The notes beneath the pieces are model-generated. The model worked only from the letters and a program-made list of their open reading frames with translations, ran no database searches and had not been told where the DNA came from. This document shows positions 7,238-46,046 of a stretch of 64,000 bases of DNA, piece by piece (position 1 is the stretch's first letter; each line of letters starts with the position of its first letter). This DNA comes from Candidatus Nanoarchaeia archaeon. GTDB lineage: Archaea > Nanobdellota > Nanobdellia > SCGC-AAA011-G17 > JAFCDX01. The position numbers and the translations under genes were made by a program. Location: positions 74,430 to 138,429 of the forward strand of contig JBAZJB010000001.1 in NCBI GenBank assembly GCA_041651575.1, read 5' to 3'.

Positions 7238-8587
7238 TTGGTTATGGAAGGAAAAAAAGAGACAGTATACTATTTCGGTTTAACTTTTATATCTAAATTT
7301 ATAACCTATCTTTTATTACTTATTTTAGCTAATTATTTTTATATTTCAGAATATGGTAAAGCTTCATTTGCTTTGGCAGTTTTTAATATAATCTATTTTT
7401 TTATGTTAATTGGTTTACCGGATCTATTTGTTCCATGGTTTATACATAAAAAAGATGTAAATTCGGTATTTTATTTTTTAGTATTATTAACTGGAATTTT
7501 TACTGTTTTAGGACTAGCTTTTACACTAATTTTTTATCCTTGGATCTTACCTTTAGCAATTTCACTTCCATTTTTATTAGTATATCTAGTAGGTTATTCT
7601 ATCTTTAGAATTAAAAAACAATATCATCTATTAAAAATTTCAGATATACTTTTTATTTTCTTAGTCTTTATTTCAGTATTTTTCTTAAAAAGTTATGGTA
7701 AATTTGGAATTACTTTAGGGTATAGTGTTGCTTATATTTTAACAAGCTTCTTTATTTTTAGTTTAACAAGAAAAGAAATATTTGGTTTGGCAAAAACTTT
7801 TAAATTAGATTTCAAAGCTATATTTCTTTATTTAAAAAAAGGTTTGTCTACAGCATTAATAATTTTGTCTTATTTATTCATAGGTTGGATAGATACCGTA
7901 ATACTTGGTGCAATGTCTACATTCGATAATGTTGCAAGATATAATATCTCTAGTCCAATTGCAAATATATTAACCATAGTTCCATTGTCTTTATCTATGT
8001 TTTTATTGACTAGGATATCTGAAGTTAAAAAAGAAAAATTATCTTTATCCATTTTTAATAGGGCCTTAAGGTTATCTACTTCTTTTTCATTACTATTGGG
8101 AATAGGAATTTTATCTTTACTTAATATATTATTAAAAATATTTTTTAAACAATATATGGATATTGGAATATATGTAACCTTGCTTATGATTGGAATATTC
8201 TTATTTTGTATATACACCTTAATTGCTACATATTTATCTGCTAAGCTTACTCCAGAAAAAACAGTTTTACCAATAACAATTGCTGCATTGTTAAATATAA
8301 TATTAGATATACTTTTAATTCCAAATTATGGTTTGTTAGGAATTTGTATTGCTACCCTGATTGCTCATACTGTTGCATTTATCCTTTTATTATCTAAAAT
8401 GAAACTATTAATTAAATATTTTTATATTATTCCACTTTCTGTTTTATTACTTATTGCTTTTTACTTGGGATTATATGGTTTAATTTTAATCCCTATTGTA
8501 ATATTATCTTTGTTTTTGTTTAAATTAATAAACTTAGAAGACTTAAAAGTCGTAAAAGGAGTTATTTTTAAAATTTTAAGAATTTAA
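7238..8587 (+). CDS. Polysaccharide/oligosaccharide flippase (Wzx-like, MOP superfamily)
   Basis: 449 aa and highly hydrophobic with about 12-14 predicted TM segments. Lies within the glycan cluster. Confidence 0.5.
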   Translation: MVMEGKKETVYYFGLTFISKFITYLLLLILANYFYISEYGKASFALAVFNIIYFFMLIGLPDLFVPWFIHKKDVNSVFYFLVLLTGIFTVLGLAFTLIFYPWILPLAISLPFLLVYLVGYSIFRIKKQYHLLKISDILFIFLVFISVFFLKSYGKFGITLGYSVAYILTSFFIFSLTRKEIFGLAKTFKLDFKAIFLYLKKGLSTALIILSYLFIGWIDTVILGAMSTFDNVARYNISSPIANILTIVPLSLSMFLLTRISEVKKEKLSLSIFNRALRLSTSFSLLLGIGILSLLNILLKIFFKQYMDIGIYVTLLMIGIFLFCIYTLIATYLSAKLTPEKTVLPITIAALLNIILDILLIPNYGLLGICIATLIAHTVAFILLLSKMKLLIKYFYIIPLSVLLLIAFYLGLYGLILIPIVILSLFLFKLINLEDLKVVKGVIFKILRI

Positions 8588-34517: not shown

Positions 34518-35345
34518 TTGATGAAATATAAGAAAGTTAAGGTTTCTGAAGATAAATCTAAAGAAGAATATAAAATAGCTTATGATTTTGCTGTTAAAGC
34601 TTATAAACAATTTAAAGAGGTTATAAAGACAGTAATTCTTTTTAACCCTACAGATAATACTTTAAAAGAAATTAATATTATAATTATCGTTGATGATTGT
34701 ACAATAGATTGGGATCAAGAATTAATAGCCTGGTATAGGGAAGAATTAGGAAAATTAATTGCTAAACAAAAATATGCTACTAAAGTGCATGTAAATACAG
34801 TTACTTTGTCTGCGTTTTGGGAAGAAGTTCGCGTAGGAGAACCATTTATAATTAATGTTTTAAGATATGGACAAGCTATGCTTGATTTTGGTGGCTTTTT
34901 TGAACCATTAAAAGTTTTATTAGCAAAAGGAAAAATAAGACCAACTCCAGAGGCAGTTTATACTGCTTTACGTAGAGCTCCTGATAGTCTTTCAAAAGCT
35001 AGATATAATATGCTTGCTAGTGTAGAAGGATTGTATTGGAGTATGGTGGATTCAGCACATGCTGCATTAATGGCTTCAAATGAAATTCCTCCAAGTCCAG
35101 AACATATTCCAGATATGTTAAGTACTATTTTTGTAAAACAAGGAAAAATACATAAGAAATATGTCGAATGGTATCATGAACTTCAAGATCTAGCTAGAGG
35201 TATTTCACAGGGAAAAATAATTTCTGTAAAACCTGAAGAATTAAATGAACATTCTAAAAGAGCAGAAATCTTTGTAAGTACTATGTATAAAATAACAGAT
35301 AATTTGTTAAAAAGAGAAAAAATAGTTAAAATAGAAAAAAAATAA
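34518..35345 (+). CDS. Hypothetical protein (weak, degenerate nucleotidyltransferase-like N-terminus and helical C-terminal half)
   Basis: 'VILFNPTDNTLKEINIIIIVDD' loosely resembles an MNT core but lacks the GS and DxD motifs. Confidence 0.25.
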   Translation: MMKYKKVKVSEDKSKEEYKIAYDFAVKAYKQFKEVIKTVILFNPTDNTLKEINIIIIVDDCTIDWDQELIAWYREELGKLIAKQKYATKVHVNTVTLSAFWEEVRVGEPFIINVLRYGQAMLDFGGFFEPLKVLLAKGKIRPTPEAVYTALRRAPDSLSKARYNMLASVEGLYWSMVDSAHAALMASNEIPPSPEHIPDMLSTIFVKQGKIHKKYVEWYHELQDLARGISQGKIISVKPEELNEHSKRAEIFVSTMYKITDNLLKREKIVKIEKK

Positions 35346-36227: not shown

Positions 36228-36279
36228 CTGTAGGTAACAACTTATAACCTTTTTAAAAGGGTTTTAAAGGAGTATAAAC

Positions 36280-36415
36280 GCCGAGAGCAGGATTTGAACC
36301 TGCACATCCTTTCGGAAACCAGCTTTCTTGCACAACCTTTCCAGGTTCGCCTTACTTCGAGGTTCGCCTTACTCTATTAGTAATCTGGCGCAATACCAGG
36401 TTATGCGATCTCGGC
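36280..36415 (-). tRNA. Intron-containing type-II tRNA gene (probably tRNA-Ser; pre-tRNA 136 nt, intron position unresolved)
   Basis: Minus-strand 7-bp acceptor stem GCCGAGA/TCTCGGC. T-arm GCAGG-TTCAAAT-CCTGC. 3-bp D-stem with 11-nt D-loop (GCA-TAACCTGGTAT-TGC) as in type-II tRNAs. Variable-arm hairpin TCC-GAAA-GGA. Discriminator G. About 50 nt of extra internal sequence. Confidence 0.55.
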
Positions 36416-36456
36416 ATATAAATCTAAAGAAATAATTGCTTTTAAAATTATCTATT

Positions 36457-45128: not shown

Positions 45129-45223
45129 AGCCCCGACCGGGAATTGAACCCGGGACCTCTTCCTTACCAAGGAACTGAGCAGTTTTCATCAAACTAGTGC
45201 TCTACCGACTGAGCCATCGGGGC
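45129..45223 (-). tRNA. tRNA-Thr(GGU) with 22-nt non-canonical intron (between positions 27 and 28)
   Basis: Minus strand. Acceptor GCCCCGA/TCGGGGC. D-arm GCTC-AGTCGGTA-GAGC. T-arm CCGGG-TTCAATT-CCCGG. Anticodon arm C|TTCC-TTGGTAA-GGAAG after removing TAGTTTGATGAAAACTGCTCAG, leaving a mature length of 73 nt. Confidence 0.55.
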
Positions 45224-45853
45224 GCTTTTAATAAAATCTACCTTCTCTTTATTTTTTAAAGGTATGTATTTTAATATTTTATAGAAATCCTTTTTATGTA
45301 TATAAATCTGATGGTAAACATGATTATTATACTTCCAAGGGCAAGAATGATAAGAAAATTTAAATTGTTTAAACATATTATCACAAAATTTAGCTAAATA
45401 TTTACTTGCTGTAGAAAGCCCAAAACCACTTCCCTTTTTACCTCCGTCTGTATCTAATAATCCTGTAAGTAATGGGGCATAATACTTTTTTGGTAAATTT
45501 GGAATTTTAGCAATTTTTGCTTTTTTACCGGTGGTAATTCCTTTATTTTTTAAGAATAAGTATATCTTTTTGGATTCTATTGGGCAATTATATAAAATTT
45601 TTCTATCTTTCTTTTTTCTAATTTCTAATCGCGGATTTATATTAAATAATCTAACAAATAGAGGAATGTATACTTCTTTACAGAAATTTAAAGAATTACA
45701 GAAAAAATAAATAAGGTGTCTTTTCTGTATTTTTCCATTTGGTCTTTTTGTAAATGCTTTAGGTAAACTTCCGTCCCCTAAAATTAAACCACAAAAATAA
45801 GCTAAATCATTATTCCATCTTTTTGGTAAAATTATATTTTTATTTATGCTCAT
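45194..45853 (-). CDS. LAGLIDADG-family homing endonuclease-like protein (free-standing)
   Basis: Two LAGLIDADG motifs 'LAYFCGLILGDGSL' and 'LLTGLLDTDGGKK' about 110 aa apart. The last 10 codons read into the tRNA-Thr 5' end, so the true C-terminus is uncertain. Confidence 0.55.
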   Translation of the reverse strand: MSINKNIILPKRWNNDLAYFCGLILGDGSLPKAFTKRPNGKIQKRHLIYFFCNSLNFCKEVYIPLFVRLFNINPRLEIRKKKDRKILYNCPIESKKIYLFLKNKGITTGKKAKIAKIPNLPKKYYAPLLTGLLDTDGGKKGSGFGLSTASKYLAKFCDNMFKQFKFSYHSCPWKYNNHVYHQIYIHKKDFYKILKYIPLKNKEKVDFIKSAPMAQSVEH

Positions 45854-45962
45854 ACCACTATGGTGCTTTTTTTATTTATAAATCTCACGCACACCCGTTT
45901 GCAAGTTGCAATTTGTTGTAATATATATTTTGTAGAATATACTTTTTATAAGAAAAAATAAG

Positions 45963-46046
45963 TGTGGGAGAAGGGATTTGAACCCTCGCAAGCACTAAGC
46001 TACTGGATCTTAAGTCCAGCGCATTTGACCGCTCTGCCACTCCCAC
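45963..46046 (-). tRNA. tRNA-Leu(UAA)
   Basis: Minus strand. GTGGGAG/CTCCCAC acceptor. 3-bp D-stem with 11-nt D-loop. Anticodon arm CTGGA-CTTAAGA-TCCAG. Long variable arm. T-arm GAGGG-TTCAAAT-CCCTT. Discriminator A. Confidence 0.75.

What the first reader, a model, noticed from the sequence alone, without database searches (positions are those of the whole stretch)
36280..36415. 136-nt pre-tRNA with about 50 nt of intervening sequence, an internal 12-nt duplication and two Ser-type anticodon-loop-like heptamers
The acceptor stem, type-II D-arm (3-bp stem and 11-nt loop), variable hairpin (TCC-GAAA-GGA), T-arm and discriminator G all fit an archaeal tRNA-Ser. The region between the D-arm and the variable arm is about 50 nt too long, and I could not place a canonical (37/38) intron. 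It contains a direct repeat TAAGGCGAACCT (twice, 5 nt apart), each copy followed by a heptamer that looks like a Ser anticodon loop (CTCGAAG, anticodon CGA, and CTGGAAA, anticodon GGA). The 5' half ends in CCAGA and its best 3' partner, GCTGG, lies just before the variable arm. This suggests one or more non-canonical introns. It could alternatively be a tandemly duplicated anticodon arm, or a gene able to yield alternative isoacceptors. Multi-intron and non-canonical-intron tRNAs are hallmarks of certain archaeal lineages.
Basis: seen in the sequence. Interest (0 to 1): 0.7.

Follow-up and report, generated by a model that had tools for sequence, protein, structure and literature searches.

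The report
Serine tRNA gene with two anticodon cassettes
This archaeal serine-tRNA gene has two introns and a conserved tandem repeat offering two alternative splice acceptors, each followed by a different anticodon (CGA or GGA), so one gene may make two serine tRNAs by alternative splicing, which has not been described for tRNAs.

Summary
A 137-nt class-II tRNA-Ser gene lies on the minus strand at 36415-36279 in a 27% GC DPANN ('Nanoarchaeia') genome. It contains a 17-nt tandem repeat, 16/17 identical.

A single-intron solution fails. A two-step solution works:
- **First intron:** non-canonical, at position 30/31, with a clean bulge-helix-bulge (BHB) motif. The helix is CGCC/GGCG, the bulges are AG|A and AA|C, and the inner helix is TTACT/AGTAA.
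- **Second intron:** short, at the canonical 37/38 position, with a relaxed motif.

Each repeat copy carries a full 3' half of the first BHB followed by C31 and an anticodon loop. The copies differ only at the wobble base (CGA versus GGA). Either choice gives a perfect 84-nt tRNA-Ser.

A syntenic orthologue (L122; neighbouring proteins 30-70% identical) keeps both cassettes base for base (28/28 nt), while the rest of the introns is unalignable. A third syntenic lineage has an intronless tRNA-Ser(GGA), and other DPANN relatives have one cassette.

The two alternative folds are nearly isoenergetic in both species.

Best reading (about 0.55): alternative 3' splice-site choice yields two isoacceptors from one gene. 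Main rival: only GGA is made. No expression data exist.

The parts
36279..36415 (-). Whole tRNA-Ser gene, 137 nt, no encoded CCA. tRNA index i corresponds to window position 36416-i.
   Evidence: Rfam RF00005 at 38.8 bits; sequence; predicted mature forms called tRNA-Ser by ARAGORN.
36385..36415 (-). Exon 1 (index 1-31): acceptor 5' strand, D arm, G26 and anticodon-stem positions 27-30 (CCAG).
   Evidence: BHB scan. 28 of 31 bases match L122; L090 matches through its own exon-1 end (30 of 30, intron at 29/30).
36379..36390 (-). Shared 5' half of the first BHB: helix strand CGCC (index 26-29), bulge AG|A (30-32, cut after G31) and inner-helix strand TTACT (33-37).
   Evidence: GCGCCAGATTACT is identical in L122.
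36356..36373 (-). Proximal cassette (index 43-60): inner-helix strand AGTAA, helix strand GGCG, bulge AA|C (cut after A53), then exon piece C31 + CTCGAA. Anticodon CGA is at 36357-36359.
   Evidence: GGCGAACCTCGA is 12/12 identical in L122, L123 and L124.
36339..36356 (-). Distal cassette (index 60-77): AGTAA, GGCG, bulge AA|C (cut after A70), then exon piece C31 + CTGGAA. Anticodon GGA is at 36340-36342.
   Evidence: GTAAGGCGAACCTGGA is 16/16 identical in L122. The same acceptor plus anticodon occurs as a single copy in L014, with variants in L090 and L068.
36363..36384 (-). Intron 1, short form (index 32-53, 22 nt), removed if the proximal acceptor is used. It sits at position 30/31.
   Evidence: BHB with 4-bp helix and 5-bp inner helix. 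Forced fold -44.6 kcal/mol.
36346..36384 (-). Intron 1, long form (index 32-70, 39 nt), removed if the distal acceptor is used. It contains the proximal cassette.
   Evidence: BHB with 4-bp helix and 5-bp inner helix. This is the unconstrained minimum-energy fold, -45.5 kcal/mol.
36325..36338 (-). Intron 2, GGA route (index 78-91, 14 nt, canonical 37/38). Relaxed BHB: helix CTGG/CAAG with 3 of 4 pairs, both bulges AA|A, no inner helix. Boundaries are ambiguous within the A-runs.
   Evidence: Removing it restores the loop CTGGAAA and the stem CCAGC/GCTGG.
36325..36355 (-). Intron 2, CGA route (index 61-91, 31 nt, 37/38). Contains the distal cassette folded against AGGTTGTGC. Helix CTCG/CAAG has 3 of 4 pairs.
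36330..36338 (-). AGGTTGTGC element (index 78-86). It is complementary both to the distal cassette GCGAACCT and to the D-arm strand GCATAACCT (9 bp). A possible competing-helix selector.
   Evidence: Minimum-energy folds. Conserved as AGGTTATGC in L122, where the G/A change keeps the pair with T13.
36279..36324 (-). Exon 3 (index 92-137): A38, anticodon-stem 3' strand GCTGG, variable arm, T arm, acceptor 3' strand and G73.
36439..36450 (-). Possible archaeal TATA-like box (TAATTTTAAAAG), about -24 to -35 from G1.
   Evidence: Sequence only. L122 has TTTATAAA at -31 to -24. Inference, not tested.

Best explanation
This is a functional, intron-split tRNA-Ser gene of a DPANN (Nanoarchaeia) archaeon. 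I propose that its precursor is spliced in two alternative ways by the ordinary archaeal machinery: the BHB-recognising splicing endonuclease and an RtcB-type ligase.

One 5' half-BHB at the end of exon 1 (CGCC, bulge AG|A, TTACT) can pair with either of two tandem, near-identical 3' half-BHBs (AGTAA, GGCG, bulge AA|C).

- Pairing with the distal copy removes 39 nt and joins CCAG to C-CTGGAA. Removing a 14-nt intron at 37/38 then gives tRNA-Ser(GGA).
- Pairing with the proximal copy removes 22 nt and joins CCAG to C-CTCGAA. The distal cassette is then removed as part of a 31-nt intron at 37/38, using the same 3' site, which gives tRNA-Ser(CGA).

The two products share an identical body. Seryl-tRNA synthetase does not read the anticodon (established knowledge), so both would be charged with serine.

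What is shown: the gene anatomy, the BHB geometry, the perfect predicted products, the orthology, and the conservation of both cassettes.

What is inferred: that both routes are used in the cell, and that AGGTTGTGC influences the choice by pairing with either the D arm or the distal cassette.
For: (1) BHB geometry. The first BHB has a 4-bp helix and a 5-bp inner helix for both acceptors.

(2) The cut rule is validated. Applied to the neighbouring gene, it gives a perfect tRNA-Thr(GGU). Applied to L090, L014 and L068, it gives perfect tRNA-Ser(GGA). On 11 predicted mature or intronless relatives, 253 of 253 stem cells pair and 10 pairs show compensatory changes, including 31:39, whose 5' base comes from the cassette.

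(3) The first intron is ancient and covaries. The helix is CGCC/GGCG, CGCT/GGCG, CGCA/TGCG or GCGC/GCGT. The inner helix is TTACT/AGTAA, TTTTT/AGAAA, TTC/GAA or TTCTC/GAGAA.

(4) Both cassettes are conserved. The syntenic orthologue L122, and the identical genes in L123 and L124 from independent assemblies, keep GGCGAACCTCGA and GTAAGGCGAACCTGGA exactly (28/28 nt). The intron loop, leader, trailer, variable arm and parts of the stems differ. Flanking proteins are only 30-35% (pilins) and 63-70% (NTase, FlaI) identical.

(5) The copies differ only at wobble position 34, C versus G, in both lineages. Position 37 is A in both cassettes here and G in both in L122.

(6) The two folds are near-isoenergetic. 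Here: -44.6 versus -45.5 kcal/mol, ensemble probabilities 0.38 and 0.48. In L122: -59.7 versus -60.4 kcal/mol, probabilities 0.18 and 0.14.

(7) In the second BHB, position 34 faces an A in both routes, so the same 3' site serves C34 and G34 equally.

(8) ARAGORN calls all four predicted products tRNA-Ser(cga) or tRNA-Ser(gga).

(9) UCG codons are used (17 in 18,618 codons). Archaea normally carry a separate C34 tRNA for each four-codon box (my knowledge: Marck & Grosjean 2002).
Against: - There are no RNA data.
- Only two lineages carry the dual cassette. The targeted metagenome scan found nothing beyond the L122 type.
- The second intron's BHB is relaxed: 3 of 4 helix pairs here and 2 of 4 in L122. 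Its exact cut sites are ambiguous within A-runs.
- In L122 the proximal acceptor forms a less canonical first BHB, with only 2 contiguous inner-helix pairs, or a 6-nt 5' bulge in the forced fold.
- UCG is about 3% as frequent as UCU+UCC, so a near-equal split would not match demand.
- I could not check whether a separate tRNA-Ser(CGA) gene exists elsewhere in the genome.
- The orthologous locus in L133 is a plain intronless tRNA-Ser(GGA), so GGA is the ancestral and main product.
Confidence: 0.55

Rival explanations
1. GGA only. The gene makes just tRNA-Ser(GGA) through the distal acceptor. The proximal copy is a passenger of an old tandem duplication inside intron 1, or has a purely structural or regulatory role in precursor folding. 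Any use of the proximal copy is unproductive.
For: The syntenic locus in L133 is an intronless tRNA-Ser(GGA), and all single-cassette relatives are GGA. The distal BHB is the unconstrained minimum-energy fold here and the more canonical one in L122. UCG codons are rare. The CGA route needs a 31-34-nt second intron with a poor BHB.
Against: A passenger in an intron loop should have diverged like the rest of that loop, which is unalignable between the two lineages. Instead it is 12/12 identical, and the C34/G34 difference is kept in both. Any pairing of the proximal GGCG with CGCC automatically creates a cleavable BHB. An unproductive acceptor with about 40% ensemble weight would therefore waste precursor and should be selected against.
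Confidence: 0.27
2. Recursive splicing. The proximal acceptor is used, but the CGA intermediate is re-spliced. CGCC re-pairs with the distal GGCG in a bulge-helix-loop motif and 17 nt are removed. Both routes therefore end in tRNA-Ser(GGA).
For: After the proximal splice, the junction CGCC-AG^C regenerates the 5' half-site and the distal GGCG-AA|C is still present (sequence logic). Some archaeal splicing endonucleases, the (alpha-beta)2 and epsilon2 types, cleave relaxed and BHL motifs, and DPANN lineages whose endonucleases carry an inserted L3 loop show a marked increase in disrupted tRNA genes (PMC5829648, PMC12397907).
Against: The re-formed motif has no inner helix (the loop is CCUCGAAGUAA). 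This route does not explain why C34 is kept distinct from G34 in both lineages, or why the proximal copy is conserved at all.
Confidence: 0.08
3. The locus is a decaying or non-functional tRNA gene (pseudogene).
For: Standard ARAGORN settings do not find it, and the Rfam score is modest at 38.8 bits.
Against: Synteny is conserved in three lineages. Compensatory changes occur in the acceptor, T, variable and anticodon stems, and 100% of stem cells pair after predicted splicing. All universal tRNA positions are intact.
Confidence: 0.03
4. ARAGORN's solution: tRNA-Leu(UAA) with a single 55-nt intron at 35/36. Other single-intron readings, such as anticodon ACU from CCAGA-TTACTAA-GCTGG, belong here too.
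For: ARAGORN run with the intron option.
Against: No BHB forms at those boundaries. The stem would have an A31:G39 mismatch. G73 and the body are Ser-type. A genuine tRNA-Leu(UAA) lies at 45963-46046. Orthologues show the mature arm is CCAGC-CTGGAAA-GCTGG.
Confidence: 0.01

Closest known systems
Multiple-intron archaeal tRNA genes with non-canonical BHB introns, as in Thermoproteales, ARMAN and other DPANN (reviewed in PMC4033280 and PMC4090602; endonuclease specificity in PMC5829648 and PMC12397907)
   Same: Introns sit at non-canonical (30/31) and canonical (37/38) positions. The motifs are of the HBh' and relaxed types. Removal is presumed to use the splicing endonuclease and RtcB. The same first intron is present as a single copy in other DPANN tRNA-Ser(GGA) genes (L014, L068, L090).
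   Different: Described cases have one acceptor per intron and one product per gene. Here one 5' half-site faces two tandem 3' half-sites, each followed by its own anticodon.
Tri-split tRNA-Gly of Caldivirga maquilingensis and the shared 3' tRNA-Glu half of Nanoarchaeum equitans (Fujishima 2009 and Randau 2005, as summarised in PMC4033280)
   Same: The logic is the same. An anticodon-bearing module is swapped onto a common tRNA body through BHB-type junctions to make synonymous isoacceptors (UCC/CCC or UUC/CUC there, CGA/GGA here).
   Different: Those systems work in trans, from separately transcribed gene pieces joined through complementary leaders. Here everything lies in cis on one 137-nt transcript, and the choice is between competing intramolecular helices. 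That makes it alternative splicing rather than trans-splicing.
Mutually exclusive exon choice by competing RNA helices in eukaryotic pre-mRNAs, such as the Dscam docking-site/selector-sequence model (from memory; analogy only)
   Same: One 'docking' strand (CGCC..TTACT) can pair with only one of several 'selector' strands, and this decides which cassette is kept.
   Different: The machinery is entirely different: protein endonuclease and ligase rather than the spliceosome. The scale differs too (a 7-nt exon piece), and the product is a tRNA.

Membership tests
tRNA (Rfam RF00005), class II tRNA-Ser | Covariance-model score above the gathering threshold. | tested here: met
   38.8 bits against 29 for the unspliced gene. 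L122 scores 38.1 bits.
tRNA (Rfam RF00005), class II tRNA-Ser | Cloverleaf with 7-bp acceptor, 5-bp anticodon stem, 7-nt loop carrying a Ser anticodon, long variable arm, G73, and conserved U8, A14, G18G19, A21 and the T-loop. | tested here: met
   Met after predicted splicing. ARAGORN calls tRNA-Ser(gga) and tRNA-Ser(cga). 253 of 253 stem cells pair across 11 relatives.
Archaeal BHB-intron tRNA (first intron, 30/31) | A 4-bp helix flanked by two 3-nt bulges, with cuts after the second bulge base, plus a flanking helix. | tested here: met
   CGCC/GGCG, AG|A, AA|C and inner helix TTACT/AGTAA (5 bp). The outer helix is weak, so the motif is of HBh' type.
Archaeal BHB-intron tRNA (first intron, 30/31) | Motif maintained by covariation in orthologues, with an exon junction that restores the stem. 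| tested here: met
   Four different helix and inner-helix sequence pairs, all pairing. Pair 31:39 is C-G, or U-A in L068.
Archaeal BHB-intron tRNA (second intron, 37/38) | A canonical BHB at 37/38. | tested here: inconclusive
   3 of 4 helix pairs here and 2 of 4 in L122. The 3' bulge AA|A is well defined next to the 5-bp stem, and there is little or no contiguous inner helix. Other DPANN tRNA-Ser introns are similarly relaxed: L012 has 3/4, L041 has 2/4, L107 has 3/4.
Archaeal BHB-intron tRNA | Actual cleavage by the splicing endonuclease and ligation in vivo. | not testable with these tools
   No RNA data are available, and the endonuclease gene was not located in the window.
Split or tri-split tRNA (trans-spliced) | Pieces encoded at separate loci with their own promoters and complementary leaders. 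| tested here: not met
   All parts are contiguous on one 137-nt gene. This is therefore not a member, although the module-swapping logic is shared.
Alternatively spliced tRNA gene giving two isoacceptors (proposed here) | Two competing, individually competent splice acceptors, each giving a valid tRNA. | tested here: met
Alternatively spliced tRNA gene giving two isoacceptors (proposed here) | Both acceptor and anticodon cassettes under purifying selection. | tested here: met
   28 of 28 nt are identical between lineages whose introns, leaders and trailers are otherwise unalignable. Only two lineages carry the arrangement.
Alternatively spliced tRNA gene giving two isoacceptors (proposed here) | Both mature tRNAs present in the cell. 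| not testable with these tools
   Needs tRNA-seq or RT-PCR.

The most novel reading that the evidence does not exclude
A single archaeal tRNA gene is alternatively spliced in cis. One 5' half-BHB chooses between two tandem 3' half-BHBs, so that tRNA-Ser(CGA) and tRNA-Ser(GGA) with identical bodies come from one transcript. The ratio would be set by competing RNA helices, including AGGTTGTGC pairing with either the D arm or the distal cassette. This would be the first alternative splicing of a tRNA that changes its decoding, and a cis intermediate between ordinary intron-containing tRNAs and tri-split tRNAs.
Probability: 0.5. Interest if true: 0.9.

Novelty: new variant of a known kind. Interest (0 to 1): 0.8.

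Why it matters
The working rule in tRNA biology is one gene, one anticodon. The only known exceptions are the trans-spliced split and tri-split tRNAs of two archaea. A cis-encoded pair of anticodon cassettes, chosen by alternative BHB pairing, would have several consequences:
- Protein-only tRNA splicing could generate decoding diversity.
- Genome-reduced DPANN archaea could keep a minor C34 isoacceptor at a cost of 17 nt instead of a whole gene.
- It would supply a plausible evolutionary link between intron-containing and tri-split tRNAs.

There is also a practical point. Standard tools miss or mislabel such genes. ARAGORN finds nothing by default, or calls Leu(taa) with the intron option, and it mislabels the neighbouring tRNA-Thr as His. 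tRNA censuses of DPANN genomes, and the inferences about 'missing' tRNAs drawn from them, are therefore affected.

Tried and rejected
- **ARAGORN, default settings:** no call at this locus.
- **ARAGORN with introns:** tRNA-Leu(taa) with a 55-nt intron at 35/36. Rejected: no BHB, a mismatched stem, a Ser-type body, and a real tRNA-Leu(UAA) elsewhere in the window.
- **Single-intron solutions:** for example, anticodon ACU from TTACTAA has no BHB and leaves an A31:G39 mismatch.
- **Alternative high-scoring BHB:** GCGC/GTGC, removing index 31-88, gives no anticodon loop and is non-productive.
- **Other placements of intron 2:** cuts at 34/35, 35/36, 36/37 and 38/39 give the same mature sequence because of the A-runs, but none forms a helix. 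Only 37/38 does, with 3 of 4 pairs (reasoned).
- **Genome scan with the 3' end pattern:** It gave single-cassette and intronless relatives but no further dual-cassette gene.
- **Metagenome scan with a dual-cassette pattern:** only two contigs, both of the L122 type. The pattern was narrow, so absence elsewhere is weak evidence.
- **Viral-contig scan:** one chance hit in an unrelated tandem repeat.
- **Synteny walks:** relatives L121 and L125-L131 have no tRNA at this site.
- **Not achieved:** I could not view the other assemblies of this same organism, because the tool collapses them. I also could not scan the rest of the genome for other tRNA-Ser genes.

Full report
**1. Observation**

The feature exists but lies on the minus strand. 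Rfam's tRNA model matches 36415->36279 at 38.8 bits (gathering score 29), with 65 unaligned bases where the anticodon loop should be. Reading the minus strand shows these parts:
- acceptor GCCGAGA/TCTCGGC
- U8
- a 3-bp D stem with an 11-nt loop (A14, G18G19 and A21 present)
- variable hairpin TCC-GAAA-GGA
- T arm GCAGG-TTCAAAT-CCTGC
- discriminator G73

The direct repeat is a 17-nt tandem duplication, AGTAAGGCGAACCT[C/G]GA, 16/17 identical. The window is 25-29% GC. The neighbouring FlaI-like ATPase is 100% identical to a protein NCBI names from a 'Candidatus Nanoarchaeia archaeon' MAG. The contig is a 315-kb ENA metagenome assembly. The organism is therefore a DPANN archaeon.

**2. Anatomy**

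I scanned for bulge-helix-bulge motifs: a 4-bp helix, two 3-nt bulges, and a cut after the second bulge base.

As a control I used the neighbouring gene that ARAGORN calls tRNA-His(atg). The scan finds one perfect motif: GAGC/GCTC, bulges AC|T and AG|T, inner helix AGTTT/AAACT. Removing its 22 nt gives a flawless tRNA-Thr(GGU). A relative has an intronless tRNA-Thr(ggt) in the same place, next to tRNA-Leu(taa).

In the Ser gene, the same rule gives one 5' half-site with two equally good 3' half-sites, one per repeat copy. Positions below are tRNA index, where index i is window 36416-i.
- **5' half-site:** CGCC (26-29), bulge AG|A, TTACT (33-37).
- **3' half-sites:** AGTAA, GGCG, bulge AA|C.
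- **Distal choice:** removes index 32-70 (39 nt) and joins CCAG to C-CTGGAA.
- **Proximal choice:** removes index 32-53 (22 nt) and joins CCAG to C-CTCGAA.

In both cases the fifth stem base, C31, comes from the cassette.

A second intron must then go. It is 14 nt (index 78-91) on the GGA route and 31 nt (index 61-91) on the CGA route. Both routes use the same 3' site, AA|A, directly before GCTGG at the canonical 37/38 position. The four predicted products from the two species are 84 nt each. ARAGORN calls them tRNA-Ser(gga) and tRNA-Ser(cga).

**3. Relatives**

- Three DPANN genes carry the same first intron in single copy, followed directly by the GGA loop: L014 (GGCGAA|CCTGGAAAGCTAG), L068 (TGCGAA|TCTGGAAAACCTG), and L090 (GCGTAA|GCCTGGAAAGCTGG, intron at 29/30).
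- L090's exon 1 matches ours at all 30 bases up to its own splice site, and its mature anticodon arm is identical to the one I predict.
- The BHB helices covary across these genes.
- On an alignment of 11 predicted-mature or intronless relatives, 253 of 253 stem cells form standard pairs, against 34-46% when partners are slid. Ten pairs show compensatory changes.

The exon boundaries are therefore sound, and the gene is under selection as a tRNA.

**4. The key comparison**

I walked synteny from the FlaI-like ATPase and from the nucleotidyltransferase gene. Two other lineages have a tRNA at exactly this spot, between the pilin genes and the NTase neighbours.
- **L133** has a plain intronless tRNA-Ser(GGA).
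- **L122** has a 146-nt gene with the same architecture as ours: GCGCCAG-ATTACT...GGCGAACCTCGA-GTAA-GGCGAACCTGGA...AGGTTATGC...AAGAAAGCTGG.
- Two JGI contigs from independent assemblies (L123, L124) carry the identical gene with partly different flanks.

The two lineages are far apart. FlaI is 70% identical, the NTase 63%, and the pilins 30-35%. Their tRNA exons differ at several stem positions with compensation. The variable arms differ almost entirely, and the loop of intron 1, the leaders and the trailers cannot be aligned.

Even so, both cassettes are identical base for base (12/12 and 16/16). In both lineages the proximal copy has C34 and the distal copy G34. Position 37 is A in both cassettes here and G in both in L122.

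A copy that was only a passenger in an intron loop should have decayed. Gene conversion could keep the copies alike, but it would also erase the C/G difference. I take this as purifying selection on the proximal acceptor and its anticodon. No other long tRNA-Ser gene among the fetched loci has an internal repeat.

**5. Energetics**

Unconstrained folding of our precursor gives the distal BHB as the minimum-energy fold (-45.5 kcal/mol), with the proximal alternative 0.5-0.9 kcal/mol above it.

| Species | Forced proximal | Forced distal | Ensemble probability (proximal / distal) |
|---|---|---|---|
| This gene | -44.6 kcal/mol | -45.5 kcal/mol | 0.38 / 0.48 |
| L122 | -59.7 kcal/mol | -60.4 kcal/mol | 0.18 / 0.14 |

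L122 stays balanced although its inner helices have diverged. Its distal acceptor uses TTACTT/GAGTAA. Its proximal acceptor uses a separate hairpin with a less canonical junction. Predicted energies are approximate, but the balance is seen in both species.

**6. The second intron and the AGGTTRTGC element**

The 37/38 motif is relaxed.
- The helix is CUGG or CUCG against CAAG, with 3 of 4 pairs. The mismatch falls exactly at position 34, so C34 and G34 are treated alike.
- L122 has 2 of 4 pairs.
- Other DPANN tRNA-Ser introns at 37/38 are similarly relaxed: L012 has 3/4, L041 has 2/4, L107 has 3/4.
- The literature reports that (alpha-beta)2 and epsilon2 splicing endonucleases cleave relaxed and bulge-helix-loop motifs. 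It also associates DPANN endonucleases that carry an inserted L3 loop with a marked increase in disrupted tRNA genes (PMC5829648 and PMC12397907).

On the CGA route, the distal cassette pairs with the conserved AGGTTGTGC (AGGTTATGCC in L122) to form a long hairpin that serves as the inner helix of the 31-34-nt intron. The same element is also complementary over 9 bp to the D-arm strand GCATAACCT in both species, and the G/A difference keeps the pair. It can therefore either sequester the distal acceptor, favouring CGA, or leave it free, favouring GGA. This switch idea is inference only.

**7. Need for the products**

In 56 ORFs of the window:

| Codon | Count |
|---|---|
| UCU | 490 |
| UCC | 44 |
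| UCA | 305 |
| UCG | 17 |
| AGU | 308 |
| AGC | 61 |

UCG is rare but used. From established knowledge, archaea typically read each four-codon box with G34, U34 and C34 tRNAs (Marck & Grosjean 2002), and seryl-tRNA synthetase ignores the anticodon. A shared body with swapped anticodons is therefore workable. Whether a separate Ser(CGA) gene exists elsewhere in this genome could not be checked.

**8. Comparison with what is known**

Full-text searches found no description of cis alternative BHB splicing of a tRNA. The closest cases are the shared 3' tRNA-Glu half of N. equitans and the tri-split tRNA-Gly of C. maquilingensis. In those, anticodon-bearing pieces are swapped 'like a jigsaw puzzle' to make synonymous tRNAs, but in trans from separate loci (PMC4033280).

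This gene is a clear member of the multi-intron, non-canonical-intron tRNA class. It is not a split tRNA. It would be a new variant: two tandem acceptors with two anticodons in one transcript.

**9. Verdict**

- **Shown:** a real, conserved tRNA-Ser gene with two introns; a tandem duplication that doubles the 3' splice acceptor and the anticodon; two valid predicted products; and deep conservation of both cassettes.
- **Not shown:** that both products are made.

| Reading | Probability |
|---|---|
| Alternative splicing to two isoacceptors | 0.55 |
| GGA only | 0.27 |
| Recursive splicing ending in GGA | 0.08 |
| Pseudogene | 0.03 |
| ARAGORN's tRNA-Leu | 0.01 |

Junction-specific RNA reads and a whole-genome tRNA census would settle the question.

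Noticed in passing
window 45129-45223 (-), intron at 45175-45196: ARAGORN's 'tRNA-His(atg)' is really tRNA-Thr(GGU), with a 22-nt non-canonical intron at position 27/28. The BHB is perfect: GAGC/GCTC, bulges AC|T and AG|T, inner helix AGTTT/AAACT. The spliced form is called tRNA-Thr(ggt). Relative L128 has an intronless tRNA-Thr(ggt) in the same position next to tRNA-Leu(taa).
   Followed up: yes
window about 45250-45910 (-), between tRNA-Leu(UAA) at 45963-46046 and tRNA-Thr: A 219-aa ORF with a faint LAGLIDADG_3 hit (gene table of L001) sits between two tRNA genes that are only 7 nt apart in relative L128. It may be an inserted homing-endonuclease-like gene.
   Followed up: partly
window 36330-36338 (-) versus 36398-36406 (-): The intron element AGGTTGTGC is complementary over 9 bp to the D-arm strand GCATAACCT of the same tRNA. 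L122 has AGGTTATGC, a perfect complement. The helix appears in the minimum-energy fold of the precursor. Its role is unknown; it may be a selector between the two acceptors.
   Followed up: partly
window 34518-35345 (+): The nucleotidyltransferase-family protein (P0121) lacks the 'LFGS...SDIDxxII' active-site stretch that all its 60-67% identical relatives have. It may be an inactivated enzyme.
   Followed up: no
L127 9089-12157 and L128 15568-19017: In relatives, the tRNA-ligase gene RtcB and its cofactor archease lie just downstream of the same pilus operon. Here and in L122, a spliced tRNA gene sits downstream of that operon instead.
   Followed up: no
L133 10985-12840: The T2SSE/FlaI-like ATPase gene of this relative carries an intein (Intein_splicing and LAGLIDADG_3 domains in the gene table).
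   Followed up: no
L014, tRNA-Ser gene ending at 7396 (+): This tRNA-Ser(GGA) has, besides the 30/31 intron, a 16-nt insertion after position 8 (GCCGAGAT-TATTGATAATATCGAA-CGCATAATC). It carries a BHB-like 3' end (ATCG, AA|C) and is probably a second non-canonical intron.
   Followed up: no
L090 1-1741 (-): The archaeal 16S rRNA match covers model positions 1-820 but spans 1741 nt. The rRNA gene therefore holds a large insertion, possibly an rRNA intron.
   Followed up: no
L107, tRNA-Ser(GCU) gene ending at 2946 (+): Another DPANN Ser gene has two introns (29/30 and 37/38). The 3' end of its second intron, GAAGAA|A, resembles ours, including a mismatch at position 34.
   Followed up: partly
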